DNA from: Phenylobacterium sp.
GTDB taxonomy: Bacteria > Pseudomonadota > Alphaproteobacteria > Caulobacterales > Caulobacteraceae
Direction of reading: 5' to 3'
Assembly: GCF_037968635.1 (NCBI RefSeq)
Contig: NZ_JBBKVV010000104.1
Coordinates: forward strand, 86 to 64,085
DNA length: 64,000 nt
The notes under the pieces were generated by a model. That model searched no databases, was not told the origin of the DNA, and worked only from the letters and a program-made list of their open reading frames with translations. Below, piece after piece: positions 1,553 to 27,650 of this stretch. The position numbers were made by a program, and so were the translations under genes. Each line of letters starts with the position of its first letter. The stretch's first letter is position 1.

Positions 1553-4102
1553 TCATCGCTGGCGCTCACGCTCCTGCTCCCGGCCACGAATGCGTTCGCG
1601 TTCTGGAGGGCGCCTCATCTCCCGCTGCAGGTTCTCAATTCCACGCACGGCCCTACCCGTCGCGCCGCGAGCGGCCACCTCGCGCAGTGTCGGATCAATG
1701 CTGAAGGCGGCCGAAATTTCTCTGGAGGATCCAGGCTGCGCTTCTTCGAGCTTCCCGCGGCTGAACTCCAACATCTCTTGAAGCTCAGGCCGTGGCTCCC
1801 GGCCCCTGGATCGCGCCCGGGCGATCTCACCAGAAGCCCTCGCGAACGCCTGCAGTGCGCTTCCAAAACCCCGATCAGAGTTCACGGTCTGACCGTCCCT
1901 GTTGCCGCCAAACCCGAGGTAGTCGGACGCCATGTCCTTTCGCCGTTCGCGACCGAGACTGCTCGCAAGCTGCTCGTCGGAGGAAAAATCCTGTCGGCTG
2001 TAGTGCAGGGAGACTGACTGGCGGTGGCGCGAGAGCGCCACGTAGGCGGCATGGCTGTCCATGTGCTCTGTGGCGAGGACATAGCTGCGATCGACCGTGA
2101 CCCCCTGCGCCTTGTGAACGGTGGCCGCGTAGCCGTGATCAAGATCGGCGTAGTCCTTGAAGTCGAACGTGACGGACCGACCATCGTGGAGGCGCACAGT
2201 CGCACCTGACTTGGTTAGCTCGATAAGGTCACCCAAGGCCCCGTTCTTCACTCCGAGTGACCGCTCATTTCGCAGGAACATCACGCGGTCCCCCTGCGCC
2301 ATCATCCGCTCGCCGTGCACGGTCTCGACAGGCAGATCTTCGCCAAGACCGCCCATTCCTCGCACCTGCGCTCGCGCGAGTTGGTTGAGAGCCGCGACAT
2401 CCTTCCGAGTGTAGGTGAGGATCATCTGAGAGCTGTTGGAATCTTCCCGTCGATCTCGTGCCCAGCCGGCGATCAGGGAGGTACGCGCGTCGGCTATCTC
2501 GTCATGCGCATGGACAGCGTCAGCCTCCGCATAGCGCGCCAGCGCGACGTCAGTACGACCGGTTGCAAGCTCGCGGGTGGCCTGCCTCTGCCAATCGTCC
2601 CGCTGCCGTCGAACCTGGGTGATCTCGACTGCGCCATGACGCTCGGCTAGCGCCCGAAATGCAGCTCCGGCCTCGATGGCCTGCAGCTGCTGCGGGTCGC
2701 CAACAAGGACGACCTTCGCGCCGGCATCGCGCGCCTCGCCGAGCACACGCTGCATCTGCCGTGAACCGACAAGACCTGCCTCGTCGACCACGAGTATGTC
2801 CTTGTCGGTCAGCAATTCGCGACCTCGCGCCCAAGCGTGCTCAAGACTCGCGAGTGTCCTTGAGTTGATACCCGACCCCGTCTCCAGGCTCTCCGCCGCG
2901 ATACCTGAGAGGGCGCCTCCAAGGACCTTGTAGCCCTCCCCTTCCCAGGCGCGCCGAGCCACGGCGAGCATGCTGCTCTTGCCCGAACCCGCGTACCCCA
3001 CGACCAAGGCGAGATCGGTGTCGCCCGTGACATGGCGTAGGGCGGAGGCCTGTTCGGCAGAGAGAGTCAGCCCTCGGCCTTCCGAGTACCGAGCAGCCTC
3101 CCTCGCAATGGCGGGCGAAACACGATGCCCATTGCGGACGTCCAAGTCCGCTGCCGACGTCTCCAATTGCGCTTCGACCTCGACCATCTCTCGCGTCGTG
3201 AAGCGTTCCTGTCCGGCTCCATCGCGCCCGAGGTAGCCCAGGTCGGGCGCGCTCCAGACAGCGGCAAGCGCCCGGTCGAACTGGGCTTTGTCATCCGTGT
3301 GCCGGTGGATGAACCGTGACACGTCCTGCCGCGTGAAGGTGGCTTGGTGATGGGTGATCGCCTCCAATGCGATGCTCGGCTCTGCGATGATCCTCTCGCC
3401 GTTTCGCCTGGCGATTTCGCGATGATCTTGCGCCCGCTCGGCGTCCTCCCCTCTCCCCTCTCGACGGGATCCCGCGGCGCCGATTTTATGCTGCGGCTCA
3501 AGGTCAATTCCCTGCGCCTCCAACGACCTGTGATCGACACGGGCATTGATATCGAGCTCAGCCAGTCGCCGGTTGAGGTGGCCTTCCCAGGCCTCCCGCC
3601 AGTGTTCCAAAAGCTCTGTCTGGTTCCAGGCGCGAACCTTTGCGCCGAAACCGTCAGGCGTTGCCTCCCGCATGGCTAGCATCACATGCGCATGCGGTCT
3701 GGCTTCGCCATCCGCACCAATGTCCCAGTGCACGTTGAGGTCGGCCACCATGCCGCGATGGACAATTTCGTTTTGTACGAAGTCGCGCGCCAGGCCGACG
3801 GCGTCGGCCTGGCCAATCTCCCGCGGCAGGGCGAACTCTACCTCGCGGGCAAGCTGGGCATCCTTGCGCTTCTCCGCGACCTCGACCTCGTTCCACAGCG
3901 TCGCGCGGTCTGCCCATCGCTCCGGCGCGCCGTCGGGCGTCAGGATCTCCGAATGAACGACGCCGGCCTTGTTGGTGAAGTCGTGCGCGCGATCGAGCCG
4001 GTCATCATGCAGACGAGAGGCGGCGCGGTAGGCCGCCGCAGCCACGGCGCTCGAGCCTTTGGCCCGGCTGATGACTTTGGCGGAGAAGTGGTAGATCGCC
4101 AT
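1553..4102 (-). CDS. traA: Ti-type conjugative relaxase/helicase TraA (MobA/MobL MOBQ relaxase + RecD-like helicase)
   Basis: N-term 'MAIYHFSAKVISR...AAAAYRA', HUH 'PHAHVML'; helicase Walker A 'GYAGSGKS', 'VVDEAG', 'HGYAATVHKAQG'. Confidence 0.95.
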   Translation of the reverse strand: MAIYHFSAKVISRAKGSSAVAAAAYRAASRLHDDRLDRAHDFTNKAGVVHSEILTPDGAPERWADRATLWNEVEVAEKRKDAQLAREVEFALPREIGQADAVGLARDFVQNEIVHRGMVADLNVHWDIGADGEARPHAHVMLAMREATPDGFGAKVRAWNQTELLEHWREAWEGHLNRRLAELDINARVDHRSLEAQGIDLEPQHKIGAAGSRREGRGEDAERAQDHREIARRNGERIIAEPSIALEAITHHQATFTRQDVSRFIHRHTDDKAQFDRALAAVWSAPDLGYLGRDGAGQERFTTREMVEVEAQLETSAADLDVRNGHRVSPAIAREAARYSEGRGLTLSAEQASALRHVTGDTDLALVVGYAGSGKSSMLAVARRAWEGEGYKVLGGALSGIAAESLETGSGINSRTLASLEHAWARGRELLTDKDILVVDEAGLVGSRQMQRVLGEARDAGAKVVLVGDPQQLQAIEAGAAFRALAERHGAVEITQVRRQRDDWQRQATRELATGRTDVALARYAEADAVHAHDEIADARTSLIAGWARDRREDSNSSQMILTYTRKDVAALNQLARAQVRGMGGLGEDLPVETVHGERMMAQGDRVMFLRNERSLGVKNGALGDLIELTKSGATVRLHDGRSVTFDFKDYADLDHGYAATVHKAQGVTVDRSYVLATEHMDSHAAYVALSRHRQSVSLHYSRQDFSSDEQLASSLGRERRKDMASDYLGFGGNRDGQTVNSDRGFGSALQAFARASGEIARARSRGREPRPELQEMLEFSRGKLEEAQPGSSREISAAFSIDPTLREVAARGATGRAVRGIENLQREMRRPPERERIRGREQERERQR

Positions 4103-4135
4103 CCCGGCGCTCCCCGCAGGTTGATCTTAAAGCGA

Positions 4136-4184
4136 CGTCGGCACGACGTATAAGCGCGCCCTCCCGACTTTCGGTCGGTCGGGA
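4136..4184 (+). other. oriT with MOBQ-type nic site
   Basis: ACGTATAAGCGCG^CCCT at 4146-4162 matches the RSF1010/pSC101/pTi-type nic core TAAxTGCG^CCCT. Flanking inverted repeats are CGTCG/CGACG (4136-4148) and TCCCGAC/GTCGGGA (4162-4184). It lies between divergent traA and traC/D. Confidence 0.8.
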
Positions 4185-4292
4185 TTTTCAGGGAATACGC
4201 AGTCCTACCCGGTCAGAGCCCGTAGCCTTACGCGTCGCGCGCTAGGCGAGAGCGCGCGAAACTCTTCCGCATGCACAGCTGCGGAGTTGGCC

Positions 4293-4595
4293 ATGCGAAA
4301 ACCTCGAGACATAGATGCCGAGCTGCAGGCTCTGGCCGAACGGGCCAAGGGCCTGAAGAGCCGCAAGGTGAGCCAGCTGGGGGAACTGGCGATCGCCACC
4401 GGAGCCGACGCTCTGTCGGTTGAAGTGTTGGCCGGCGCCCTACTCGCGGCGGCCAAGACCCGTGATGAGACCGCGATCACCACGTGGCGCCGACAGGGAG
4501 AAGCCTTCTTTCGGCGGACGGCCACACGTCGCGTTGGGGCGGGCGCTGGCCAGGACACTGACAGCGCTACGCCGCACCCTGGCTCAGAAACATAG
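4293..4595 (+). CDS. Relaxosome accessory protein, TraC/TraD-like
   Basis: 'MRKPRDIDAELQALAERAKGLKSRKVSQLGELAIATGADAL', divergent from traA in the pTi-like traCDG arrangement. Confidence 0.75.
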   Translation: MRKPRDIDAELQALAERAKGLKSRKVSQLGELAIATGADALSVEVLAGALLAAAKTRDETAITTWRRQGEAFFRRTATRRVGAGAGQDTDSATPHPGSET

Positions 4596-4635
4596 AGCTG
4601 AAGCCTTGCAGGCCAGAACTGAGACAAGGACCTGG

Positions 4636-4878
4636 ATGGCGGCGCGGCGCGAACGAACACGCCATCTGATCGAACTCGGCGGCTTGGTGCAGAAGGCGGG
4701 ACTGGTCGAACTCACGGACGACGACCGCGCCGTATTGCTTGGCGCATTCCTAGCTGTCGCCCAGATGTTGTCAGGGGAGCAGAGACAGGCGGCCTTGGCC
4801 AACTGGCGCCACTCTGGCCGGCGGGCGTTTCAGGCTCACGCCATGGCGGTTGCCGAGCGAGATCGGACCGAGCCATGA
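4636..4878 (+). CDS. traD: Conjugal transfer protein TraD-like
   Basis: 'RRERTRHLIELGGLVQKAGL' resembles the pTi TraD motif. ATGA overlap with traG. Start uncertain. Confidence 0.75.
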   Translation: MAARRERTRHLIELGGLVQKAGLVELTDDDRAVLLGAFLAVAQMLSGEQRQAALANWRHSGRRAFQAHAMAVAERDRTEP

Positions 4879-6446
4879 AGTACTTGCGACTAGCCGTTTG
4901 GCTGATCGTCGGCTTCTTCGGTGGAAGCCTGCTCATGAACATCGCGCTCTATGCGGCGCGGTTCGCTGGACACCCCATTTGGCCAGCCTGGCTGCTTCCG
5001 CTCCAGGTGGCCGGAGAGGTTCTCGGCGCATTCTCTGGCTATCTTTGGTGGCGGTTCAAGAACCGACCGCTTCGGTCGGACGTCCATGGTTCGGCGCACT
5101 TTCAAGGCGCCAAGATCACCAGGGCCACCCTCGGGGTGAGTCGCGGCCTCATTGTCGGTCGCGACAGACGCGGGGAACTTTTGCGTTACGACGGACCCGC
5201 GCACCTGCTGACAATTGCACCGACCCGATCTGGCAAGGGCGTCGGCGCGATCATCCCGAACTTGCTCACGACGGACTACTCGATCCTTTGCATCGATCCG
5301 AAAGGCGAGAACGCCCGCATCACGGCTCGCGCACGTGCGTTGCGCGGCCCAGTGCATGTCCTCGATCCGTTTGGAATCTCGGGTGAGCCCTGCGCGGCGT
5401 TCAATCCACTGAGCCGGTTGGACCCGGCCGGTGTCGACCTAGCGGAAGACGCGGCAATGATCGCCGATGCTTTGGTCTACGACCCGCCCGGCCAGGTGAG
5501 TGAGGCGCACTGGAACGAGGAGGCCCGCGCGCTCATCGCCGGGCTCATTCTCCACATTGTGACGAACCGATCTCCCGCCCACCGGTCGCTTGCAGCGGTT
5601 CGCGCCCTCCTCACTACCACGCCTGAGAAGTTCGATCAGGCGCTCTTTGACATGCAAGGTAGCTACGCTGCTCGCGGTCTCGTGGCCCGCGCCGCCAACC
5701 GGCATCTCAGCAAGAGTGAACGTGAGGGCGCGGGCGTTCTGTCGGCCGCTCAGAGGCACACCCACTTCCTCGACAGCCCGCGCATGGTACGGGTGCTGCA
5801 GAAGTCCGACTTTGCTTTTAGCGATCTCAAGCGAGGGCCAACCAGCGTCTTCCTGGTGCTGCCACCGGAGCGCCTGGCGACGCATGCTCGCTGGCTGCGG
5901 CTGTTGGTAGTCCAGGCGATCGGTGAGTTGGCGCAGACGCAGGCGAAGGATGCGCCACCACCGCATCCCGTTCTGATGATGCTTGACGAGTTTGCGGCGT
6001 TGGGACGCGTCGAACCTGTCGAGCGTGCCTTCGCACTGATGGCCGGCTACGGCCTGCAACTCTGGGCGATCCTGCAGGACCTCCATCAATTGAAGGGCCT
6101 GTACGGAGAACAGGCTGGAAGTTTCCTATCCAACGCTGGCCTGATCCAGGTCTTCAATGTCGCTGACATCGACACCGCGACCTGGGTGTCCCGCACCCTT
6201 GGCGCAGCGACGGAAGTGTTCAACACGATGTCGTGGGCGGAACGGCCGGAGTCCCGACCTTGGTGGCGGTCTTACACGCCCACAACGACGCTCAACCTCA
6301 GTCGCCGAGACCTCATGACGCCCGACGAGGTGATGCGTCTGGGTCAGGAAGAGTTGCTACTCCTGCGCCCTGGCATGTCGCCCGTGGTGGCGCAGAAGGT
6401 TCGCTACTATCGGGACCAGCAGTTTGCGGGCCTCTTCGATGCATAG
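4875..6446 (+). CDS. traG: Type IV coupling protein TraG/VirD4
   Basis: N-terminal TM segments, Walker A 'APTRSGKG', 'IDPKGE', Walker B 'MMLDEFAALG', 'ILQDLHQL', 'LMTPDEV'. Confidence 0.93.
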   Translation: MKYLRLAVWLIVGFFGGSLLMNIALYAARFAGHPIWPAWLLPLQVAGEVLGAFSGYLWWRFKNRPLRSDVHGSAHFQGAKITRATLGVSRGLIVGRDRRGELLRYDGPAHLLTIAPTRSGKGVGAIIPNLLTTDYSILCIDPKGENARITARARALRGPVHVLDPFGISGEPCAAFNPLSRLDPAGVDLAEDAAMIADALVYDPPGQVSEAHWNEEARALIAGLILHIVTNRSPAHRSLAAVRALLTTTPEKFDQALFDMQGSYAARGLVARAANRHLSKSEREGAGVLSAAQRHTHFLDSPRMVRVLQKSDFAFSDLKRGPTSVFLVLPPERLATHARWLRLLVVQAIGELAQTQAKDAPPPHPVLMMLDEFAALGRVEPVERAFALMAGYGLQLWAILQDLHQLKGLYGEQAGSFLSNAGLIQVFNVADIDTATWVSRTLGAATEVFNTMSWAERPESRPWWRSYTPTTTLNLSRRDLMTPDEVMRLGQEELLLLRPGMSPVVAQKVRYYRDQQFAGLFDA

Positions 6447-6522
6447 TCGGACTGACGACCGCAACTCGCGATTGGACCGGGAGCAGCTTGTCACCTCCCC
6501 CGGCTCAGGCGACATACATGAG

Positions 6523-7443
6523 ATGAAGACCAGTCTGGATCACCTACCGGCGGGCAAGCGACGCGAGCTCGAACTCGTCGTGGAGATCCTGGCGGCATCA
6601 TTTGCAAAGGCAGTTGCGGATCGAAAGGTCGACCGTCTGAAGAACGGCAAGATCCTGAAAATCATCCTATTTGGATCGTATGCTCGCGGGGACTGGGTCG
6701 AGGATCCGGTCGGACGTTACTTCTCTGACTTTGACTTACTCGTGGTGGTGGACGACGACGATCTAGCCGACACGGTTGAGTTCTGGGATATCGCTGAGGC
6801 TCGCCTGCTTAAGGAGCTGTCGGCTGGCAAAGTCCTTCGGACACCGGTCAACTTCATCGTCCACAGCCTGCAGGATGTGAACCACCAGCTTGAGCGTGGT
6901 CGCTACTTCTTCGTCGATATCGTCCGCGACGGCGTCCTGCTGCTTGACGTCCCAGGTCACCCTCTCACCACTCCGAAGGATCTGGCCCCAGCAACGGCGC
7001 TCGACGAAGCGAAGGGGTATTTCGACCAATGGCTGGAGAGCGCCGCAGACTTCGAGGATCAGGCTACCTACGCGGTTTCGAAAGGTAGGCTCAAAAACGC
7101 AGCCTTCCAAATGCATCAGGCGGCGGAGCATTTCTACAACTGCGTTCTGCTGGTTCTAACCCTCTACACACCAAAGTCCCACAATCTAGTGCGCCTTCGA
7201 AATCTGGCCGAGCCACTTGACCCTCGCCTGATCGCCGTCTGGGCCTTCGACACAAAGTTTGAAAAGCGCTGCTTCGAGTTGTTGCGCGCGGCGTACATCA
7301 AGGCGCGCTACTCGCGGCACTTCAAAGTCACGGCGGACGAGTTGGAGTGGCTCGGTCAGCGGGTGGCAGCGTTAAAGACAGCGGTCACAGCCGTTTGTGA
7401 GGAGCGGTTAGAAGCGTTGGAAACGCAGATCGCTGCCGAATAG
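6523..7443 (+). CDS. Fused minimal nucleotidyltransferase (MNT) + HEPN domain protein
   Basis: 'LFGSYARGDW...SDFDLLVVV' NTase motif followed by HEPN-like 'AAFQMHQAAE...PKSHNL...AYIKARY'. Start taken at MKTSLDHLP. Confidence 0.88.
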   Translation: MKTSLDHLPAGKRRELELVVEILAASFAKAVADRKVDRLKNGKILKIILFGSYARGDWVEDPVGRYFSDFDLLVVVDDDDLADTVEFWDIAEARLLKELSAGKVLRTPVNFIVHSLQDVNHQLERGRYFFVDIVRDGVLLLDVPGHPLTTPKDLAPATALDEAKGYFDQWLESAADFEDQATYAVSKGRLKNAAFQMHQAAEHFYNCVLLVLTLYTPKSHNLVRLRNLAEPLDPRLIAVWAFDTKFEKRCFELLRAAYIKARYSRHFKVTADELEWLGQRVAALKTAVTAVCEERLEALETQIAAE

Positions 7444-22619: not shown

Positions 22620-23117
22620 CTACGACTCCACTGCGCCGCGCAGCCCCCTGAAGGTCTTCACCCTATGAACGCGGGCAAGCATCCGGGTGAGGAGCTTGGA
22701 CTCCTCCTGCGGTTCCCCGTTCTCCCCAGCGATCGCCTCGTCGTCACGCCAGGCGTCTGGATTGGCTTTGATCGACGCACAGATTCGCACCTTCGCGACT
22801 TCCAGCGACATTGGCGGCCGCTCCGCGAGTTCGTGTTCGAGCGCATAGTTGCTCTGCTGGAATACGAACCTGACGATGCGGCCCAGGAAGGATCCAACAA
22901 TCCCGAGATTCCTGACGCCGACGACCTCCCAGCTTCGCCCCGTCGCGTCGACCAGGATCATGCCGCGTCGAGCATCGTGCTTGATGTCCCACTGCGTGCC
23001 CGTCGAGAAATCTTCGTCCGATCCAAACCACGCAAGCCGCTCGCGTCCCGCGATCGCGTGGCCGCCAACGTCCTTGCCGAACGCCAACAAGGGGTACTTG
23101 AAAGGAAGGCCCGTCAC
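22620..23117 (-). CDS. Putative immunity protein for the upstream nuclease toxin
   Basis: GTG start overlaps the toxin stop (GTGA); ~165 aa; no recognisable family. Confidence 0.55.
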   Translation of the reverse strand: MTGLPFKYPLLAFGKDVGGHAIAGRERLAWFGSDEDFSTGTQWDIKHDARRGMILVDATGRSWEVVGVRNLGIVGSFLGRIVRFVFQQSNYALEHELAERPPMSLEVAKVRICASIKANPDAWRDDEAIAGENGEPQEESKLLTRMLARVHRVKTFRGLRGAVES

Positions 23118-23791
23118 TTCGAGCGCCTGCCTTGCTCTGCGGCCCCCATGGCCGGATGACCGACGGCCGAGCCCGTCGCCCACTTCGACCAAGCCGGCGT
23201 TCCGTACCAGTAGCGTTGCGCCGGCTTGAACTGCGGCTGACCGCCGTATCGACCGTGGATACGCCCGTGGACCTGCGGGCTTGGCATCGGCTTGATGTTC
23301 CAGGGCTGGTTCTTGATGAAATCCGGAACAGCCTTACCCCAGCCCTCGTTTTGTGGGATCGCCCAATGGTGGCCGTGCTGGCCAGGCTTCAGAAACTTCT
23401 GCTCGCCCATCCAGGTTCGGACATTCCCTTTCCACCCGTAAGGAGCCGCCCGCCTAGTCGCCTTGTTTGCGATGAAGACCCCGCCCTTCACCAGTCCTTT
23501 GCCAAGCGAGCCTGCGACAGCCAGATCGGACACCGCCAGCGCTCCATTCAGGCCGGCTCCGATATAGTCGCCGTCTTCGAAATCCGCCAACGCCTCACGG
23601 CCAGATCCCCACACTGGGATAAGGGACTCCAGTTCGCCGGGATGGCCAATCCGGCCACCGCTTCCCGACTTCATTTCAGGCTCACCCGCCGCCCGCGCAT
23701 TGTTCGCGGCCTGACGGCGGATCATCTCGTCATAGTCTTCGTCATTAATGTCGGGGACGGAACGCGGCTCCCCGTTCGGCATACGCGCCAT
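23114..23791 (-). CDS. Short polymorphic-toxin-like protein with pre-toxin motif and GHH/HNH-fold nuclease tip
   Basis: 'IPVWGSGREA...GAGLNGALAVSD' pre-toxin-like segment, then 'QHGHHW...NQPWNIKPM...VHGRIHG'. AAAGGTGAG RBS. Confidence 0.7.
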   Translation of the reverse strand: MARMPNGEPRSVPDINDEDYDEMIRRQAANNARAAGEPEMKSGSGGRIGHPGELESLIPVWGSGREALADFEDGDYIGAGLNGALAVSDLAVAGSLGKGLVKGGVFIANKATRRAAPYGWKGNVRTWMGEQKFLKPGQHGHHWAIPQNEGWGKAVPDFIKNQPWNIKPMPSPQVHGRIHGRYGGQPQFKPAQRYWYGTPAWSKWATGSAVGHPAMGAAEQGRRSK

Positions 23792-24127
23792 GCAAACTCA
23801 CCTTTTCTGACCAGAAAAACGCAAATCCCCATAAGACCGGCGCGCCCGGCGACGATCTCTTCCGCACGCTCAAGCTACACTCCAAGTCTCATCGTGGGCA
23901 CTTATGCACTTGAGATACCACGTCGGCGGCCCTAGACTGATTCGGACAGGCCGGCGCTCGCTAGATTTTTCGGTAGGGAAACCTTTACCGACTCATTACC
24001 TTTTGGAGTTGCGTGCGACGCGGTGAATCTCCAGGCCGTAGCCCTGTCCTTAGAGCTTTAACGTTGGGCTCTTCTGAGATGGGTGAGCTTTGTGGGGGAC
24101 AACGATATGGAGTCCCCACCACGCACT

Positions 24128-24149
24128 AGGGGGCGGCTTCGGCCGCCCC
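24128..24149 (-). terminator. GC hairpin immediately after the stop of the 24150-24554 gene
   Basis: GGGGCGGC-TTCG-GCCGCCCC stem-loop. No clear U-tract. Confidence 0.45.
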
Positions 24150-24554
24150 TCACTTCTTCAAGTCTCGCAAGACCGGAAAGCGGCGCATCTTGCTCCGCAC
24201 CTGCGGCCACTCCGTCTTGTGGAACGTGACCACGAACAGCAAGCGCCTTTCGTTGCAGCGCTTGACCGTCACGCGAAACCACTTGTTCCAGACGTACTCA
24301 TCAAAGTGCAGGAAGACGAGATGTTGGTCGCCGTCGCGCACGACAGCTCCCTGATCAATCGTTTCGTCCAGCATCGGAAAATGGTTCGGAAGAAGTTGGT
24401 GCTCCTGAACGCACTTCACCGCGTACGAGTGTTCTATCCGCACGACATTGGAAGCCGCGCCTAGGTGCTCGGTTAGGTTGGGAGACAGCTGCGCTAGCTG
24501 GATAGTTCTGCCTCGACCCCTGCGTATGAAGCTATCCCAGTCCCGAACATTCAT
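24150..24554 (-). CDS. IS passenger; hypothetical protein, possibly BECR-fold (PBECR/RelE-like) RNase
   Basis: 134 aa; beta-rich C-terminus 'HLVFL...WFRVTVK...LFVVTFHK' resembles BECR-fold nucleases. Confidence 0.45.
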   Translation of the reverse strand: MNVRDWDSFIRRGRGRTIQLAQLSPNLTEHLGAASNVVRIEHSYAVKCVQEHQLLPNHFPMLDETIDQGAVVRDGDQHLVFLHFDEYVWNKWFRVTVKRCNERRLLFVVTFHKTEWPQVRSKMRRFPVLRDLKK

Positions 24555-24598
24555 GGGCTATGGCATAACTGAACTTTCACGGTGCGGAAGGGGCTAGC

Positions 24599-24742
24599 GT
24601 GACGGACAGCCAAGACGACATCTCGGAAGAGGAAGCCGCTCGCCGTCGCGACGAAGTCGTGAAGCGGATGCTGGCAACGCCGCCGCAACCGCGAGATCCA
24701 AAGAAGGGGCGCGAGCCGAAGCCCGCGCCGAAAATGAAATGA
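24599..24742 (+). CDS. IS passenger; 47-aa small protein (not in ORF track)
   Basis: GTG...MTDSQDDISEEEAARRRDEVVKRMLATPPQPRDPKKGREPKPAPKMK-TGA. From recall, a similar motif occurs in alphaproteobacterial IS1595 elements. Confidence 0.55.
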   Translation: MTDSQDDISEEEAARRRDEVVKRMLATPPQPRDPKKGREPKPAPKMK

Positions 24743-24806
24743 GACACCTAAGGCTCCGTCTTGCGCTTTGGATTGCGCGCCGTCTGGGCGTCAGCGTGTT
24801 CCCCGA

Positions 24807-25112
24807 TCAAGCCCACTTCGTGAAGGGCATCATCTTGAAGAGGTCCTGATCGGTGATTGCGCCGATAGCCCGAGCGCTCTTGAAGAGCGGCATACCCAGC
24901 AGGGCGAGGTCGGTACTGACGTCGATCTCACCACTGATGATGGCGGCGACTTCATCGATATTCTGCTGAGCTTGGAAGAGGATGAACGACGTAGGCTCGA
25001 CCCACCACGGCATGGTGGCGATGCTGCCAACGGCGCCTGTTAGGCCGTCATAGCGGGCGGTGTGATTGCCGACTTGGGCAATCCTGAAGGTCAACCAGTA
25101 GAGGTTTGACAT
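24807..25112 (-). CDS. IS passenger; small ferredoxin-fold (Cas2/VapD-like) hypothetical protein
   Basis: 101 aa 'LYWLTFRI...RYDGLTGAV...WWVEPTSFILF' beta-alpha-beta pattern. AAGG RBS. Confidence 0.45.
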   Translation of the reverse strand: MSNLYWLTFRIAQVGNHTARYDGLTGAVGSIATMPWWVEPTSFILFQAQQNIDEVAAIISGEIDVSTDLALLGMPLFKSARAIGAITDQDLFKMMPFTKWA

Positions 25113-25325
25113 AAAGGCATCCTTGTTTGGGTGCCTGCGTGGGTTGACCGTCTAGGGTGACTCAGAGAGTATCCCTTTGCCTTCGGCCCGCCCCACACAG
25201 GCGGTTTCGGAACGCCCGGTCGACGTTGGCGCGTCGCCGGGCACTACCCGTCTAGGGTGATTCACGATCCGTTCCGAGTCCCAAGGTGCCGCTTCGCCTG
25301 AAGCTTCCGCGCCTTCTGCTTCCGG

Positions 25326-26276
25326 CTACGCGGCTTTACGAGGCTGTCGGTAGGTCAGGCGCTTGCCGACCACGCCGCGCACGGCCTCGTCGGCTCGCAT
25401 GCTGTCGGTGATCCCGAGGCCCGAGCGGTTCGAGTAGCGGAAATCGAACTCCACTAGATAACGCGAGAGGTGCGCTTCCGAGACGTGGTGGAACGTGCCG
25501 GTGATCCCGCGCTTGAGGATCGAGAAGTAGTTCTCGACCGTGTTGGAGTGATGCAGGCCGTGGCGGACATACTCGCCAGCGGCGTGATCGACGGCGCTGT
25601 GAGCGGCGAACTCCTTGCCAACCGCTGGGTACATGCGGGCGCCGTCCGTCATCAGGTGAGAGGCCCGGTCGGCGGTCTTGACGATGATCGGGCGCAGGGT
25701 CTTCGCCGTGACGTTGGCGACGTGGAAAGAACGGGCGCGACCGCCGCGCTCAACGAGGGTGATCACGGCTTCCTTGCGGCCGAACATGTCGCGCGAGTTG
25801 CGCTTGTTCTTGTGCTTGTTGGCCTCTTTGCCGCCCACGTAGGTCTCATCGACCTCAACGAACTTGCCTTCGCCGCCCAGCGGGGACGGTTCGGCGGGCA
25901 GGTTCATCGCCTCGCGGATGCGGTGCGCCATGAACCAGGCCGTCTTGTAGGAGCCGAAGCCGAGCATCCGGAACAGTTGGTGAGCGCTGATCCCCTTCTT
26001 TGACGAGCACATCAGGTGCGTCGCCAGCAGCCACTTATGCAGCGGGATATGCGAGCGCTCGTAAACCGTGCCCATCGTGGCGGTGAACGGCTTGCGGCAT
26101 TCCTTTTCCTTGCACTTGAACAGACCCGGACGGGTTGTGCGGCCCTTCATCTCCGTGGCGTTATCGACCACGCCGCAATGCGGGCAGACCGGACCATGCG
26201 GCCAGCGCAGCGCTTGGAAGTGAGCGCGGGCGGCGTCTTCATCGTGGAAAATCGGGGCGGTCAGGTCGGTAGACAT
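25326..26276 (-). CDS. IS1595-family DDE transposase
   Basis: Zn ribbon 'CPHCG...FKCKEKECRK', HTH 'KKGISAHQL', catalytic 'VEVDETYVGG', 'LMTDG', 'HSNTVENYFSILKR', 'YLVEFDFRYS'. Confidence 0.97.
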   Translation of the reverse strand: MSTDLTAPIFHDEDAARAHFQALRWPHGPVCPHCGVVDNATEMKGRTTRPGLFKCKEKECRKPFTATMGTVYERSHIPLHKWLLATHLMCSSKKGISAHQLFRMLGFGSYKTAWFMAHRIREAMNLPAEPSPLGGEGKFVEVDETYVGGKEANKHKNKRNSRDMFGRKEAVITLVERGGRARSFHVANVTAKTLRPIIVKTADRASHLMTDGARMYPAVGKEFAAHSAVDHAAGEYVRHGLHHSNTVENYFSILKRGITGTFHHVSEAHLSRYLVEFDFRYSNRSGLGITDSMRADEAVRGVVGKRLTYRQPRKAA

Positions 26277-26501
26277 CGGGTTTCTCGCTTGTTGAGAAAA
26301 CCCTATCAAATCAATCGTGGTATCTCAAGTGCATAAGTGCCTCATCGTGTCCAGAACATAACAAGAACTTCTGACGGCGCCTGGACGCCGCAGCGCTCAA
26401 CAAATGAACAGGCGGCCGCCATCGTGGTCCCGAACGCCCACCGTCATTGCCACCGGTCCCCACACGCCTAAGCTCCAAGGGCCAACCCTGGGGACTTCCA
26501 C

Positions 26502-27650
26502 ATGACCGCCCGCACCGAACTCACCGACGAGGCCCTCTCCGACCTCACCAGCCGCGGCTACTCCCGTCGCAGCATCGGCAAGGTGCTCAGCCTGTTCGCC
26601 GCCGCCCCAGCCCTGGGCACGGCGCTCGCCGGCCCCGCCGTGGCGCAGGAGGCCAAGAGCATGGTGCTGATCGGGGCCAACGAGTGCTGGACCGGCCCTC
26701 TCGCGCCCGGCGCCAAGGCTGCGGCGGACGCCATCGCCACCGGTAACCGCTACACCGGCTCCCAGCGCGAGGCCTTCGCCCAGGCGCTGTCCTCGGTGGA
26801 AGGCGTGCCCACCAGCCACATCATGACCTGGCCGGGGTCCAGCGATCCGCTGTCGCGCATCATCGTCACCTATTGCTCGCCGACCCGCGGCCTGGTCACC
26901 GCCGACCCCACCTTTGAACTGGCCGGGAGCGTCGCCCAGTACCTGGGGGTGAAGGTGTCCAAGGTTCCGCTGAAGGCCGACTACGCCCACGATGTGAAGG
27001 CCATGCTGGCCGCCGATCCCAACGCCGGGGTCTACTACATCTGCACCCCCAACAATCCGAGCGCGACCCTGACCGGCCTGCCCGATGTGGAGTGGTTGCT
27101 GGCCAACAAGCCCGCCGGCTCCATCGTCCTGCTGGACGAGGCCTATATCCATTTTTCGGAGGCCAAGCCCGGCGCCTACCTGGCCGCGCAGAACAAGGAC
27201 ATCATCGTCCTGCGCACCTTCTCCAAGCTGTTCGGCATGGCCGGCATGCGTCTGGGCGCGACGATCGCCCGGCCTGACCTGATGACCAAGACCATGCGCT
27301 ATGACGGCGGCATGGCCAGCTTCGCCCTGCCCAATCCGTCCCTGGTCTGCGGCACGGCCAGCCTGACCGCCGCCGGGCTGATCAAGGCCCGGCGCGACGA
27401 GATGATCGCGGTGCGCTCCAAGAGCCTGGCGCTCCTCGACAAGCGCGGCATTGAGCATGTCCCCTCGGACGCCAACTTCTTCATGGTGGACTGGAAGAAG
27501 CCGGCCAAGGAGGTCCAGGCCGCCTTCGCCAAGGAGAACGTCGCCATCGGCCGCTCCTGGCCGATCTGGCCGACCCGCAGCCGCGTGACGGTCGGCTCCG
27601 CCGCCGAGATGGCGGCCTTCGACGCCGCCGTGGTGAAGCTGAACCTCTAG
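26502..27650 (+). CDS. Class I/II PLP-dependent aminotransferase (HisC-like) with Tat signal
   Basis: 'YSRRSIGKVL' leader, 'CTPNNPS', 'LLDEAYIHF', 'LRTFSKLFGMAGMRLG'. Confidence 0.9.
   Translation: MTARTELTDEALSDLTSRGYSRRSIGKVLSLFAAAPALGTALAGPAVAQEAKSMVLIGANECWTGPLAPGAKAAADAIATGNRYTGSQREAFAQALSSVEGVPTSHIMTWPGSSDPLSRIIVTYCSPTRGLVTADPTFELAGSVAQYLGVKVSKVPLKADYAHDVKAMLAADPNAGVYYICTPNNPSATLTGLPDVEWLLANKPAGSIVLLDEAYIHFSEAKPGAYLAAQNKDIIVLRTFSKLFGMAGMRLGATIARPDLMTKTMRYDGGMASFALPNPSLVCGTASLTAAGLIKARRDEMIAVRSKSLALLDKRGIEHVPSDANFFMVDWKKPAKEVQAAFAKENVAIGRSWPIWPTRSRVTVGSAAEMAAFDAAVVKLNL

What the first reader, a model, noticed from the sequence alone, without database searches (positions are those of the whole stretch)
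23889..26349. Intact IS1595 transporter element carrying three small passenger genes
Perfect 26-bp TIRs and an exact 8-bp TSD (TCATCGTG) indicate a recent, probably active insertion. About 1.4 kb of the 2445 bp is cargo downstream of the transposase: a putative BECR-like RNase, a 47-aa peptide and a Cas2/VapD-like protein. Inference: an IS-borne mini addiction or anti-phage cassette.
Basis: partly seen in the sequence, partly recalled or inferred. Interest (0 to 1): 0.72.

Follow-up and report, generated by a model that had tools for sequence, protein, structure and literature searches.

The report
IS1595 element carrying RNase-plus-sRNA module
An intact jumping gene of the IS1595 family carries, as cargo, a phage-type ribonuclease gene that is always accompanied by a small pseudoknotted RNA absent from Rfam 15; the same pair is common in phages and may be a toxin with an RNA antidote.

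Summary
The element spans 23897-26341 (2445 bp) and has perfect 26-bp inverted ends, an exact 8-bp duplication (TCATCGTG) and an intact IS1595-family transposase. Two congeners have the uninterrupted site.

The "three passengers" reading needs revision. The 101-aa and 47-aa genes travel with the transposase in related elements at 44-61% identity, so they look like IS backbone. Only the slot beyond the 47-aa gene varies.

In this copy that slot holds a 134-aa protein. Its fold matches phage MuF C-terminal and polyvalent-protein domains, and it keeps a colicin-D-like K/H...K...T/S-x-H residue set. Relatives occur fused to MuF head proteins.

Covariation is strong: 92-96% of cells paired against 26-59% in slid controls, and 12-15 pairs with compensatory changes. 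More than 100 copies were found, mostly just after MuF-RNase genes in phage contigs. Promoter placement and the G-U/A-C asymmetry suggest it is transcribed convergently to the RNase gene.

My best reading is an RNase toxin with an RNA antitoxin or regulator, captured by a transporter IS. That function is inferred, not shown.

The parts
23889..23896 (.). Target-site duplication, left copy (TCATCGTG)
   Evidence: Read directly from the sequence. Relatives have a single uninterrupted site.
23897..23922 (.). Terminal inverted repeat at the cargo end (GGCACTTATGCACTTGAGATACCACG)
   Evidence: 26 nt, 100% complementary to 26316-26341. Related elements L026, L027, L032 and L036 have the same style of end. 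The only sigma70-like consensus site in the region (TTGAGA-17-TAGACT, + strand, 23910-23938) lies here and points inward.
24007..24128 (+). Conserved pseudoknotted RNA motif. P1 is 24010-24015 paired with 24120-24125. It also has P2, a variable P3, P4 with an invariant YACG/CGUR loop, and a 5-bp pseudoknot. The strand given is the more likely one (about 80%); the covariance model was built on the - strand.
   Evidence: CM R1 scores 77.3 bits, E 8e-15, and this is the only copy in the genome. No Rfam 15 match.
24130..24149 (.). G+C-rich hairpin GGGGCGGC(UUCG)GCCGCCCC between the RNA motif and the RNase stop codon. It is probably a shared, bidirectional terminator.
   Evidence: On the + strand it has a UUCG loop and a UCACUUCUU tail. 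It is conserved after solo RNase genes. The simple terminator scan did not flag it, because the U tract is weak.
24150..24554 (-). 134-aa PBECR-like (colicin-D-like BECR) putative RNase. This is the variable cargo gene.
   Evidence: The family has 227 representatives. AF2 pLDDT is 97.4. BFVD hits to MuF C-terminal and PolyVal proteins have E 5e-7 to 1e-4 and TMq 0.6-0.73. Relatives are fused to MuF. Conserved residues: K47, H52, G69, K98, T/S110, H112.
24599..24742 (+). 47-aa conserved small protein (core motif ARRRDEVVKRMLATPPQP). It is part of the IS backbone and divergent from the cargo gene.
   Evidence: It is protein-coding: differences fall 71 at third codon positions against 9 and 0 at first and second, and 64 are synonymous against 11 non-synonymous. 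It is present next to the transposase in elements with other cargo.
24807..25112 (-). 101-aa ferredoxin-fold protein. It is a recurrent IS1595-linked accessory gene.
   Evidence: More than 200 homologues. AF2 pLDDT is 92.9. The best PDB matches are Cas2, with E 0.009-0.04. It lies next to an IS1595 transposase and a p47 gene in L087, L088 and L089.
25113..25325 (-). Strongly structured spacer between the transposase and the 101-aa gene. It contains two 17-nt direct repeats (25148 and 25248).
   Evidence: MFE is -98.7 kcal/mol, z = -4.3, and 0 of 200 shuffles fold as well. The spacer is partly conserved in L026 and L088.
25326..26276 (-). IS1595-family transposase (316 aa from the ATG; the longest ORF starts at TTG 26309)
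26316..26341 (.). Terminal inverted repeat at the transposase end
26342..26349 (.). Target-site duplication, right copy (TCATCGTG)

Best explanation
This is an intact transporter IS of the IS1595 family with an ISNwi1-like end sequence. It inserted recently into the intergenic space between a 225-aa gene and an aminotransferase gene.

Its backbone is the transposase plus two conserved small genes: a 101-aa ferredoxin-fold protein and a 47-aa protein. Beyond the 47-aa gene lies a slot whose content differs between related elements.

In this copy the slot holds a two-part module taken from the phage world:
- A stand-alone version of the RNase-like domain that many phages carry at the C-terminus of their MuF head protein.
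- A ~120-150-nt pseudoknotted small RNA encoded immediately after the RNase stop codon. It is most likely transcribed from its own promoter on the opposite strand, so it converges on the RNase gene and shares its terminator hairpin.

The most likely mechanism is that the protein is a metal-independent endoRNase (a toxin or effector). The RNA would be its dedicated neutraliser or regulator, acting by binding the protein, by pairing with the 3' end of its mRNA, or both. The pair would then behave as an addiction or abortive-infection module that stabilises whatever carries it (IS or prophage). Phages that carry the RNA alone could use it as an antidote.

Shown here: the IS anatomy and the empty site; the linkage of p101 and p47 with the transposase; the RNase-like fold, fusions and conserved residues; the RNA structure and its linkage to the RNase domain; the promoter placement.

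Inferred: RNase activity, neutralisation by the RNA, and any benefit to the IS.
For: IS anatomy: TIR, TSD and transposase are confirmed. The site is empty in two congeners.

Backbone versus slot: the tnp-p101-p47 trio recurs in L087, L088 and L089 at 54-61%, 50-55% and 44-50% identity, with different last genes of 211 and 173 aa. p47 also lies next to the transposase in L027, L028 and L029, which carry 257- or 245-aa cargo.

RNase:
- pLDDT is 97.4.
- BFVD hits to 'Phage MuF C-terminal domain', 'PolyVal' and 'Nuclease' proteins have E 5e-7 to 1e-4.
- MuF fusions are seen in P0215 and P0282, in L082, L083 and L086, and in at least 52 of 72 phage loci.
- K47 (91/92), H52 (86/92), K98 (92/92), T/S110 (91/92) and H112 (75/92) are conserved. 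This matches the Lys-His in the pre-alpha helix plus Thr/Ser and His on the last strand described for PBECR and colicin-like BECR RNases (PMC5512222; bioRxiv 10.64898/2026.08.28.747851).

RNA structure:
- All 15 protein-first loci have the motif.
- 74 of 105 RNA-first loci have the RNase domain directly upstream.
- Covariation is 95.9%, 94.8% and 91.8% of cells paired, against 26-59% for slid partners. Twelve to 15 pairs carry compensatory changes, and 0 of 500 shuffles reach the observed covariation score or percentage paired.
- The pseudoknot covaries: CUCCA/UGGAG, CUCCG/CGGAG, CUCCC/GGGAG, CUGCC/GGCAG.
- Negative control: 0 CM hits in 534 kb of phage DNA.

Convergent transcription:
- A TTG-N15-19-YAnnnT site ends 2-14 nt from the motif edge in 33 of 108 copies on the opposite strand, and in 0 of 108 on the RNase strand.
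- A-C/C-A cells number 37 against 14 G-U/U-G on the RNase strand (p 0.0018).
- The opposite strand has the lower MFE.

Prophage setting: solo RNase-plus-RNA modules sit beside cI/cro-like repressor genes in L043 and L044, the usual place for prophage exclusion genes.
Against: The 134-aa protein itself hits no Pfam, NCBIfam, PADLOC or PHROG model. Only 3 of 92 relatives touch PBECR3, at E 0.011. hhalign to a true PBECR2 domain found nothing. PDB fold matches to RelE and HigB are not significant.

The strand of the RNA is not settled. The invariant C(UACG)G loop, a classic stable tetraloop, lies on the RNase-sense strand. In MuF operons the motif starts 3-40 nt after the stop codon, which leaves no room for a terminator.

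G-U pairs are rare on either strand. Single-sequence folding is not better than shuffles (z -1.6 and -1.0).

In a lytic phage late operon, a toxin-antitoxin role is not obviously needed.

In this window the promoter homologous to those of relatives is weak.
Confidence: 0.5

Rival explanations
1. The three small ORFs are independent passengers that form a protein-only cassette. The RNase is the toxin and the divergent 47-aa peptide is its antitoxin. The Cas2/VapD-like protein is a second nuclease.
For: p47 and p134 are adjacent in WIN, L036, L037 and L041. In L032 they are co-directional, like a classical antitoxin-toxin operon. p47 is a genuine, acidic-then-basic small protein. p101 has a Cas2-like ferredoxin fold at marginal significance.
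Against: p47 occurs next to IS1595 transposases with unrelated last genes and no RNase (L027, L028, L029, L087, L088). The RNase occurs without p47 in prophages and MuF fusions (L042-L044, L046-L052, phage loci). p101 likewise follows the transposase rather than the RNase. The only constant neighbour of the RNase domain is the RNA.
Confidence: 0.12
2. The RNA is a phage regulatory or anti-defence small RNA with its own function, such as control of late genes or acting as a decoy. The RNase domain is its processing or turnover enzyme, or merely a neighbour. The IS copy would then be a hitch-hiking phage fragment with no toxin-antitoxin behaviour.
For: Most copies lie in phage structural operons after MuF genes. 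One follows a MuF-PBECR2 protein that has no detectable sequence similarity to p134. Nine records carry the RNA with no p134-like domain anywhere, among them a CheckV-complete 70.9-kb phage and two MAGs. Iyer et al. proposed that PBECR domains target specific RNAs rather than act as general toxins (PMC5512222).
Against: The solo RNase-plus-RNA pair moves as a unit into IS elements and prophage immunity regions, away from any structural operon. The position directly after the toxin-like domain is where immunity genes of MuF and polymorphic toxins sit (bioRxiv 10.64898/2026.08.28.747851).
Confidence: 0.25
3. The conserved element acts as DNA rather than RNA, for example as a folded single-strand site for recombination, packaging or cassette capture, comparable to an integron attC site at the 3' end of a cassette.
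For: It marks the 3' boundary of a gene that moves between contexts. The helices use all four Watson-Crick types with very few G-U pairs.
Against: A sigma70-like promoter lies at a fixed distance on one strand only. The A-C versus G-U asymmetry points to one strand. There is a 5-bp pseudoknot with covariation and a tetraloop-capped mini-helix. In solo contexts a terminator hairpin follows.
Confidence: 0.06

Closest known systems
IS1595 family, ISNwi1 subgroup with passenger genes ('transporter IS', Siguier, Gagnevin and Chandler 2009, cited in PMC3129680)
   Same: It has a DDE transposase with an N-terminal zinc ribbon, an 8-bp target duplication, ends beginning GGnnnTTAT, and extra genes inside the inverted repeats.
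   Different: No identical or near-identical copy was found in plasmids, relatives or metagenome proteins; the best transposase match is 86% aa (L036). Two of the 'passengers' behave as conserved backbone. I could not query ISfinder.
PBECR / MuF-C domains of phage polyvalent and MuF proteins (Iyer et al. 2017, PMC5512222; Pfam PBECR1-5)
   Same: It is an alpha+beta BECR-like fold that occurs solo or as the C-terminal domain of Phage_Mu_F proteins. [quoted passage not shown]
   Different: No Pfam PBECR model reaches threshold, and there is no profile similarity to PBECR2. It has an extra ~40-residue N-terminal beta-alpha unit. An associated RNA has not been described for PBECR domains in the papers I could search.
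Type III toxin-antitoxin systems (ToxIN, CptIN, TenpIN)
   Same: They pair an endoRNase protein with a pseudoknotted non-coding RNA, occur on mobile elements and prophages, and include phage-borne antitoxin mimics.
   Different: In type III systems the RNA is a tandem array upstream of the toxin on the same strand, and the toxin is of the ToxN/AbiQ kind. Here the RNA is single-copy, about 120 nt, downstream and probably convergent, and the protein is BECR-like.
Type I toxin-antitoxin pairs with convergent 3'-overlapping antisense RNAs (txpA/RatA, bsrG/SR4 type; from general knowledge)
   Same: The small RNA gene converges on the toxin gene and shares or overlaps its 3' end and terminator.
   Different: Type I toxins are small membrane peptides. 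Here the RNA body is a conserved pseudoknot that lies outside the overlap.
Cas2 / VapD (for the 101-aa protein)
   Same: It has a ferredoxin-like beta-alpha-beta-beta-alpha-beta fold of about 100 residues.
   Different: Foldseek E is only 0.009-0.04. There is no HMM match, no acidic residue at the end of strand 1, and no cas1 or CRISPR nearby. Its conserved partner is an IS1595 transposase.

Membership tests
IS1595 family insertion sequence | DDE_Tnp_IS1595 catalytic domain with an N-terminal zinc ribbon | tested here: met
   NF033547 at 6.9e-60 over the full profile; PF12762 at 2.4e-37; PF12760 at 3.1e-13.
IS1595 family insertion sequence | Terminal inverted repeats and an 8-bp target-site duplication | tested here: met
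   26-nt perfect TIR. TCATCGTG on both sides. Empty site in G299 and G016.
IS1595 family, ISNwi1 subgroup | End consensus ggnnatTAT (ISfinder, recalled from memory) | tested here: inconclusive
   The ends read GGCACTTAT. Relatives read GGCAGTTAT and GGCGCTTAT. The consensus is from memory and ISfinder was not available.
Transporter IS (tIS) | Genes unrelated to transposition lie inside the TIRs | tested here: met
   There are 1403 bp with three ORFs and one RNA between the TIR and the transposase. The cargo slot varies among relatives.
Catalogued IS (ISfinder entry) | At least 95% identity to a named IS | not testable with these tools
   No ISfinder copy was available. No match above 90% in plasmids, relatives or the own genome.
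PBECR (phage BECR-fold RNase) | Match to a Pfam PBECR1-5 or MuF_C model at the curated threshold | tested here: not met
   The window protein has 0 families. 3 of 92 relatives hit PBECR3, best E 0.011. hhalign to a PBECR2 domain gives probability 0.3%.
PBECR (phage BECR-fold RNase) | BECR-like fold shared with MuF C-terminal or polyvalent-protein domains | tested here: met
   BFVD Foldseek gives 12 hits at E <= 1e-3, TMq 0.58-0.73 over 124-150 columns, named MuF C-terminal, PolyVal or Nuclease. PDB shows only weak RelE and HigB hits.
PBECR (phage BECR-fold RNase) | Occurs solo in phages and fused C-terminally to MuF | tested here: met
PBECR (phage BECR-fold RNase) | [quoted passage not shown] | tested here: met
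   H52 in 86/92 (with K47 in 91/92) lies in helix 42-52. T/S110 in 91/92 and H112 in 75/92 lie on strand 106-114.
PBECR (phage BECR-fold RNase) | Endoribonuclease activity | not testable with these tools
   This needs biochemistry.
Type III toxin-antitoxin | The RNA antitoxin is a tandem repeat array upstream of, and co-transcribed with, the toxin | tested here: not met
   The motif is single-copy, lies downstream of the gene and is probably convergent.
Type III toxin-antitoxin | The RNA binds and inhibits the RNase | not testable with these tools
   Only linkage was tested: 15/15 and 74/105.
Type I toxin-antitoxin | Small hydrophobic toxin peptide | tested here: not met
   The protein is a 134-aa soluble alpha+beta protein.
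Cas2 / VapD (101-aa protein) | HMM match, and a catalytic Asp at the end of strand 1 | tested here: not met
   No Pfam or NCBIfam hit. Strand 1 reads YWLTFRI. The invariant residues are W6, F9, R20, W37, D68 and G84.
Any Rfam 15 family (RNA motif) | Covariance-model match | tested here: not met
   Nothing relevant up to E 10 on either strand.

The most novel reading that the evidence does not exclude
The ~120-nt pseudoknotted RNA would be a new class of RNA antitoxin or 'immunity RNA' for BECR-fold RNases. It would neutralise both stand-alone copies (on IS elements and prophages) and the virion-packaged MuF-RNase fusions of many phages. Phages carrying the RNA alone would use it as an antidote. 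That would make this a toxin-RNA system outside the present type I and type III definitions, and this IS would be a naturally minimal, portable example of it.
Probability: 0.33. Interest if true: 0.85.

Novelty: new variant of a known kind. Interest (0 to 1): 0.72.

Why it matters
The IS itself is an ordinary, though intact, member of a known family.

Its cargo is worth more attention. It exposes a structured RNA with strong covariation support and more than 100 copies found here, tied to a predicted RNase domain that phages package in their heads. The RNA has no Rfam 15 match.

PBECR domains have been bioinformatic predictions since 2017, with no known partner, substrate or immunity factor. 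A dedicated RNA next to them gives a concrete, testable handle.

The 2.4-kb IS copy is a compact, self-contained version that can be cloned and tested in laboratory strains.

The finding also suggests that this IS1595 clade has a conserved three-gene backbone with a swap-in cargo slot. That bears on how transporter ISs pick up genes.

Tried and rejected
Family searches for the three ORFs. Pfam, NCBIfam, PADLOC and PHROGs gave nothing usable. PDB sequence searches with family profiles found nothing.

Searches for the element and its proteins elsewhere:
- tblastn of p134 against GenBank phages and of p101 against plasmids gave no match.
- The element against plasmids matched only transposase fragments below 70% identity.
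- Back-translated p134 patterns found nothing in GTDB species genomes and one locus in JGI metagenomes.

RNA folding and pattern work:
- RNAalifold's first model paired GCGYGGUGGG with UUCACCGYGU. I rejected it because sequences with a different P2 (L052, L067, L068, L071) keep UUCACCG unchanged and compensate within the local hairpin.
- My first loose DNA pattern was mis-specified. It returned 56 chance loci with 0 CM hits, which served as a negative control.
- Single-sequence folding z-scores for the motif are not significant.

Strand of the RNA. I first assumed the RNA was a 3' UTR on the RNase strand. The G-U/A-C counts, the MFE comparison and the promoter placement turned me towards the opposite strand.

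Other items:
- The weak Rfam suhB/mmgR hit at 24693-24761 (E 0.074) was treated as chance, because that stretch is under protein-level selection as p47.
- Earlier scan notes held only a first-reader note on the same stretch.
Full report
**1. Observation**

The window holds a 2445-bp element at 23897-26341. It is bounded by 26-nt, 100% complementary inverted repeats. The 8-mer TCATCGTG flanks it on both sides, at 23889-23896 and 26342-26349.

The large ORF 25326-26309(-) is an IS1595-family transposase. It matches NF033547 at 6.9e-60 over the whole profile, PF12762 at 2.4e-37, and the PF12760 zinc ribbon at 3.1e-13. Relatives start at the equivalent of ATG 26276, which gives 316 aa.

I joined the two flanks with one copy of the 8-mer. 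That sequence aligns straight across the junction to two genomes of the same genus: G299 at 79% and G016 at 72%. The element is therefore a true insertion, and its boundaries are exact.

It lies between a 225-aa gene of unknown family (23114-23791 -) and a PLP-dependent aminotransferase (26502-27650 +). The 4.1-Mb draft genome has only this one full copy, plus a second IS1595 transposase at 74% nucleotide identity and a remnant.

**2. Backbone versus cargo**

All three small ORFs lack hits in Pfam, NCBIfam, PADLOC and PHROGs. All three are nevertheless real genes.

- The 134-aa and 101-aa proteins have same-length homologues at 36-83% identity.
- The 47-aa ORF shows a clear coding signature. 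In its 22-codon core, differences fall 71 times at third positions against 9 and 0 at first and second. Codon differences are 64 synonymous against 11 non-synonymous.

Related elements with the same style of ends (GGnnnTTAT[GA][CT]ACTT.A) were found in relatives and metagenomes.

- The order transposase, then p101, then p47 (reversed) recurs in L087 (Tsuneonella sp. YG55) and in L088/L089. Identities there are 54-61%, 50-55% and 44-50%.
- The gene beyond p47 in those elements is a different 211- or 173-aa protein.
- p47 also sits next to the transposase in L027, L028 and L029, with 257- or 245-aa last genes.
- L026 has other cargo again: a DUF3892 protein and 184- and 80-aa ORFs.

So p101 and p47 behave as IS backbone, and the position between p47 and the inverted repeat is a variable slot.

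p101 folds with high confidence (pLDDT 92.9) into a ferredoxin-like domain. Its best PDB neighbours are Cas2 proteins, but only at E 0.009-0.04 and TM 0.5-0.6. It lacks the Cas2 acidic residue on strand 1.

**3. The 134-aa protein**

A profile search of 1.84 billion representatives found 227 relatives. The family is rare and patchy. It occurs in 8 of 301 genomes of the same family, and the back-translated pattern scan found none among GTDB species genomes.

The AlphaFold2 model is very confident (pLDDT 97.4).

- It has no significant PDB neighbour. RelE and HigB2 recur weakly.
- It matches predicted viral structures named 'Phage MuF C-terminal domain-containing protein', 'PolyVal ADP-ribosyltransferase', 'Minor capsid protein' and 'Nuclease', at E 5e-7 to 1e-4 and TMq 0.6-0.73.

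Relatives occur as the C-terminal domain of Phage_Mu_F proteins.

Across 92 diverse members the conserved residues are K47, H52, G69, K98, T/S110 and H112. That is a Lys-His pair in the N-terminal core helix, and Thr/Ser-x-His on the last core strand. Iyer et al. describe this arrangement for PBECR domains (PMC5512222). A 2026 preprint describes it for colicin-like BECR RNases (10.64898/2026.08.28.747851).

Sequence-level membership in a Pfam PBECR family is not shown. Three of 92 members touch PBECR3, best E 0.011. hhalign against a genuine PBECR2 domain found nothing. I file the protein as PBECR-like by fold, architecture and active-site pattern.

Outside IS elements, the solo gene sits next to cI/cro-like repressor genes in prophage fragments (L043, L044) and near an integrase (L042).

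**4.

The 228 bp between the RNase stop codon and the inverted repeat are not empty. Every one of 15 loci found through the protein carries the same downstream block. This holds even at 32% protein identity and in non-IS contexts.

Read on the RNase strand, the block has these parts:
- P1, 6-9 bp.
- P2, 6 bp, whose loop contains CUCCR.
- A conserved AUnGCACC joiner.
- A variable hairpin P3.
- A mini-helix GGC(UACG)GCC.
- YGGAG, which pairs with the P2 loop to form a pseudoknot.
- A conserved RUUCACCGYGUC stretch.
- The 3' strand of P1.

Rfam 15 has no match on either strand up to E 10. Literature searches found nothing.

Exact-pattern scans found 14 copies in named genomes: Brevundimonas, Phenylobacterium, Asticcacaulis, Mesorhizobium, Bradyrhizobium, Beijerinckia, Alsobacter and Acuticoccus. 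They also found 12 copies in IMG/VR phage contigs.

A covariance model built from 22 sequences (R1) gave these results:
- One copy in the own genome, at window 24007-24128 (77.3 bits, E 8e-15).
- Copies in 8 of 401 genomes sampled across the class.
- Matches in 72 of 76 further phage loci fetched with a looser pattern.
- No matches in 534 kb of phage DNA fetched with a mis-specified pattern, which served as a negative control.

Covariation is strong in all three alignments.

| Alignment | Cells paired | Slid controls | Pairs with compensatory changes |
|---|---|---|---|
| A6 (22 sequences) | 95.9% | 26-55% | 12 of 20 |
| A7 (41 distinct) | 94.8% | 33-59% | 15 of 20 |
| A9 (68 distinct phage copies) | 91.8% | 38-55% | 12 of 15 |

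In each alignment, 0 of 500 shuffles reach the observed covariation score or percentage paired. In A9, P1 shows all four Watson-Crick types at five of its six positions. The pseudoknot covaries as CUCCA/UGGAG, CUCCG/CGGAG, CUCCC/GGGAG, CUGCC/GGCAG, CUGCA/UGCAG and CUGCU/AGCAG.

**5. Linkage to the RNase domain**

Starting from the RNA, the RNase-like domain lies directly upstream in:
- 17 of 26 pattern hits.
- 5 of 7 class hits. Three of these are MuF fusions whose stop codon is 3-6 nt from the motif.
- At least 52 of 72 phage hits. Nearly all are C-terminal domains of ~400-450-aa MuF proteins, with a gap of -13 to +40 nt.

One phage copy follows a MuF-PBECR2 protein (PF18810, 8e-21).

Nine records carry the RNA with no p134-like domain anywhere in the record. 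They include a CheckV-complete 70.9-kb phage and two MAGs.

**6. Which strand?**

I first took the RNA for a 3' UTR. Several tests point instead to the strand opposite the RNase gene.

- Non-Watson-Crick cells on the RNase strand are A-C/C-A 37 times against G-U/U-G 14 times. The binomial p is 0.0018, uncorrected for relatedness.
- The opposite strand folds more stably (Wilcoxon p 3e-4 and 0.05).
- A TTG-N15-19-YAnnnT promoter-like site, with its -10 element ending 2-14 nt from the motif edge, is present in 33 of 108 copies on the opposite strand and in 0 of 108 on the RNase strand.
- TTG occurs at -44 to -29 in 61 copies against 18.
- In the window, the hairpin 24130-24149 has a UUCG loop and a U-rich tail on the + strand.

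Against this reading:
- The invariant C(UACG)G tetraloop lies on the RNase strand.
- In MuF operons there is no room for a terminator before the ORF.

I put about 80% on a convergent, independently transcribed sRNA (window + strand, roughly 24005-24160) whose 3' end overlaps the RNase mRNA's 3' end.

**7. Mechanism and rivals**

The best-supported reading is a transporter IS that has captured a phage-derived two-part module: a PBECR-like RNase and its dedicated structured RNA.

The RNA occupies the place where immunity genes of MuF and polymorphic BECR toxins normally sit. It is the only constant neighbour of the domain across IS, prophage and virion contexts. I therefore favour an RNA antitoxin or regulator, which would give the carrier addiction or exclusion properties. 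That step is inference.

Rivals:
The distribution of p47 weakens this.
- An autonomous phage sRNA for which the RNase is a processing enzyme or merely a neighbour. The RNA-only phages and the PBECR2 case support this.
- A DNA-level site. The strand-specific promoter and the pseudoknot make this unlikely.

**8. Comparison with known systems, and novelty**

The element meets the tested defining features of the IS1595 family and of a transporter IS. Identity to a catalogued IS could not be tested.

The module resembles type III toxin-antitoxin systems in principle (RNase plus pseudoknotted RNA, mobile, with phage-borne RNA-only copies). It fails their defining layout of tandem repeats upstream on the same strand. 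It resembles convergent type I pairs in layout but not in the kind of toxin.

The IS is a new member of a known kind. The RNase-RNA pairing appears undescribed, and I rate the whole as a new variant of a known kind.

**9. Limits**

- There are no expression or functional data.
- The covariance-model E-values are rough, because calibration was short.
- Alignments A7 and A9 are fitted to the model, and the slid controls address that only partly.
- Upstream-ORF calls in high-GC phage DNA picked some wrong-frame ORFs, so 52 of 72 is a lower bound.
- The ISNwi1 end consensus is from memory.

Noticed in passing
window 25113-25325 (- strand): The spacer between the transposase stop and the 101-aa gene folds unusually well (-98.7 kcal/mol, z -4.3). 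It contains two 17-nt direct repeats (CCGTCTAGGGTGAYTCA at 25148 and 25248). Hairpins GCCCGGC...GCCGGGC and CCGC...GCGG recur in the same place in L026 and L088, ahead of different genes. It may be a structured leader or regulatory site of this IS clade.
   Followed up: partly
L087 (Tsuneonella sp. YG55, JAOAMV010000001.1) 2204-4555: A related tnp-p101-p47 element with a 211-aa cargo gene lies between two ORFs that both carry Type_ISP_C domains of a type ISP restriction-modification enzyme. The IS appears to have split a restriction gene.
   Followed up: no
L067, L068, L071, L074, L075, L077, L078 (IMG/VR), L054, L059 (MAGs): The RNA motif occurs without any p134-like domain in the whole record, including a CheckV-complete 70.9-kb phage. 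In L071 it sits inside a lysis cassette, upstream of a cell-wall peptidase-like gene.
   Followed up: partly
L231 (IMGVR_UViG_3300038701_002276) 2724-4284: A MuF protein with a bona fide Pfam PBECR2 domain (8e-21) is followed, 149 nt later, by the same RNA motif. PBECR2 shows no profile similarity to the 134-aa family. The RNA may go with MuF-RNase genes in general.
   Followed up: partly
L032 (JGI Ga0498921_0000285) 4135-6665: In this related 2.5-kb element the RNase gene with its RNA is inverted relative to the window. As a result p47 and the RNase are co-directional, and the RNA lies next to the transposase 3' end.
   Followed up: partly
G031:C5:56013-56036 (L031): A solitary 24-nt copy of the window's terminal inverted repeat sits in a congener, with no element attached within the fetched 5 kb.
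   Followed up: no
window 23114-23791 (- strand): The 225-aa gene just outside the IS has no hit in Pfam, NCBIfam, PADLOC or PHROGs. The IS sits 97 bp upstream of its start and 152 bp upstream of the aminotransferase start, so it may disturb both promoters.
   Followed up: no
L027 1222-1575; L026 2938-3219: Other elements of this IS clade carry a DUF1508 (YegP-like) protein or a DUF3892 protein in the position that p101 holds here.
   Followed up: no
whole genome: The genus is probably Phenylobacterium (Caulobacteraceae). The RNA locus of same-genus genome G158 (L052) is identical to that of a 'Phenylobacterium sp.' record (L061). That of same-family genome G293 (L050) is identical to Brevundimonas sp. 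Root1279 (L053). This is an inference only.
   Followed up: partly
window 24693-24761 (- strand): A weak Rfam suhB/mmgR match (23.6 bits, E 0.074, below gathering) overlaps the 3' end of the 47-aa gene. I treated it as chance.
   Followed up: partly
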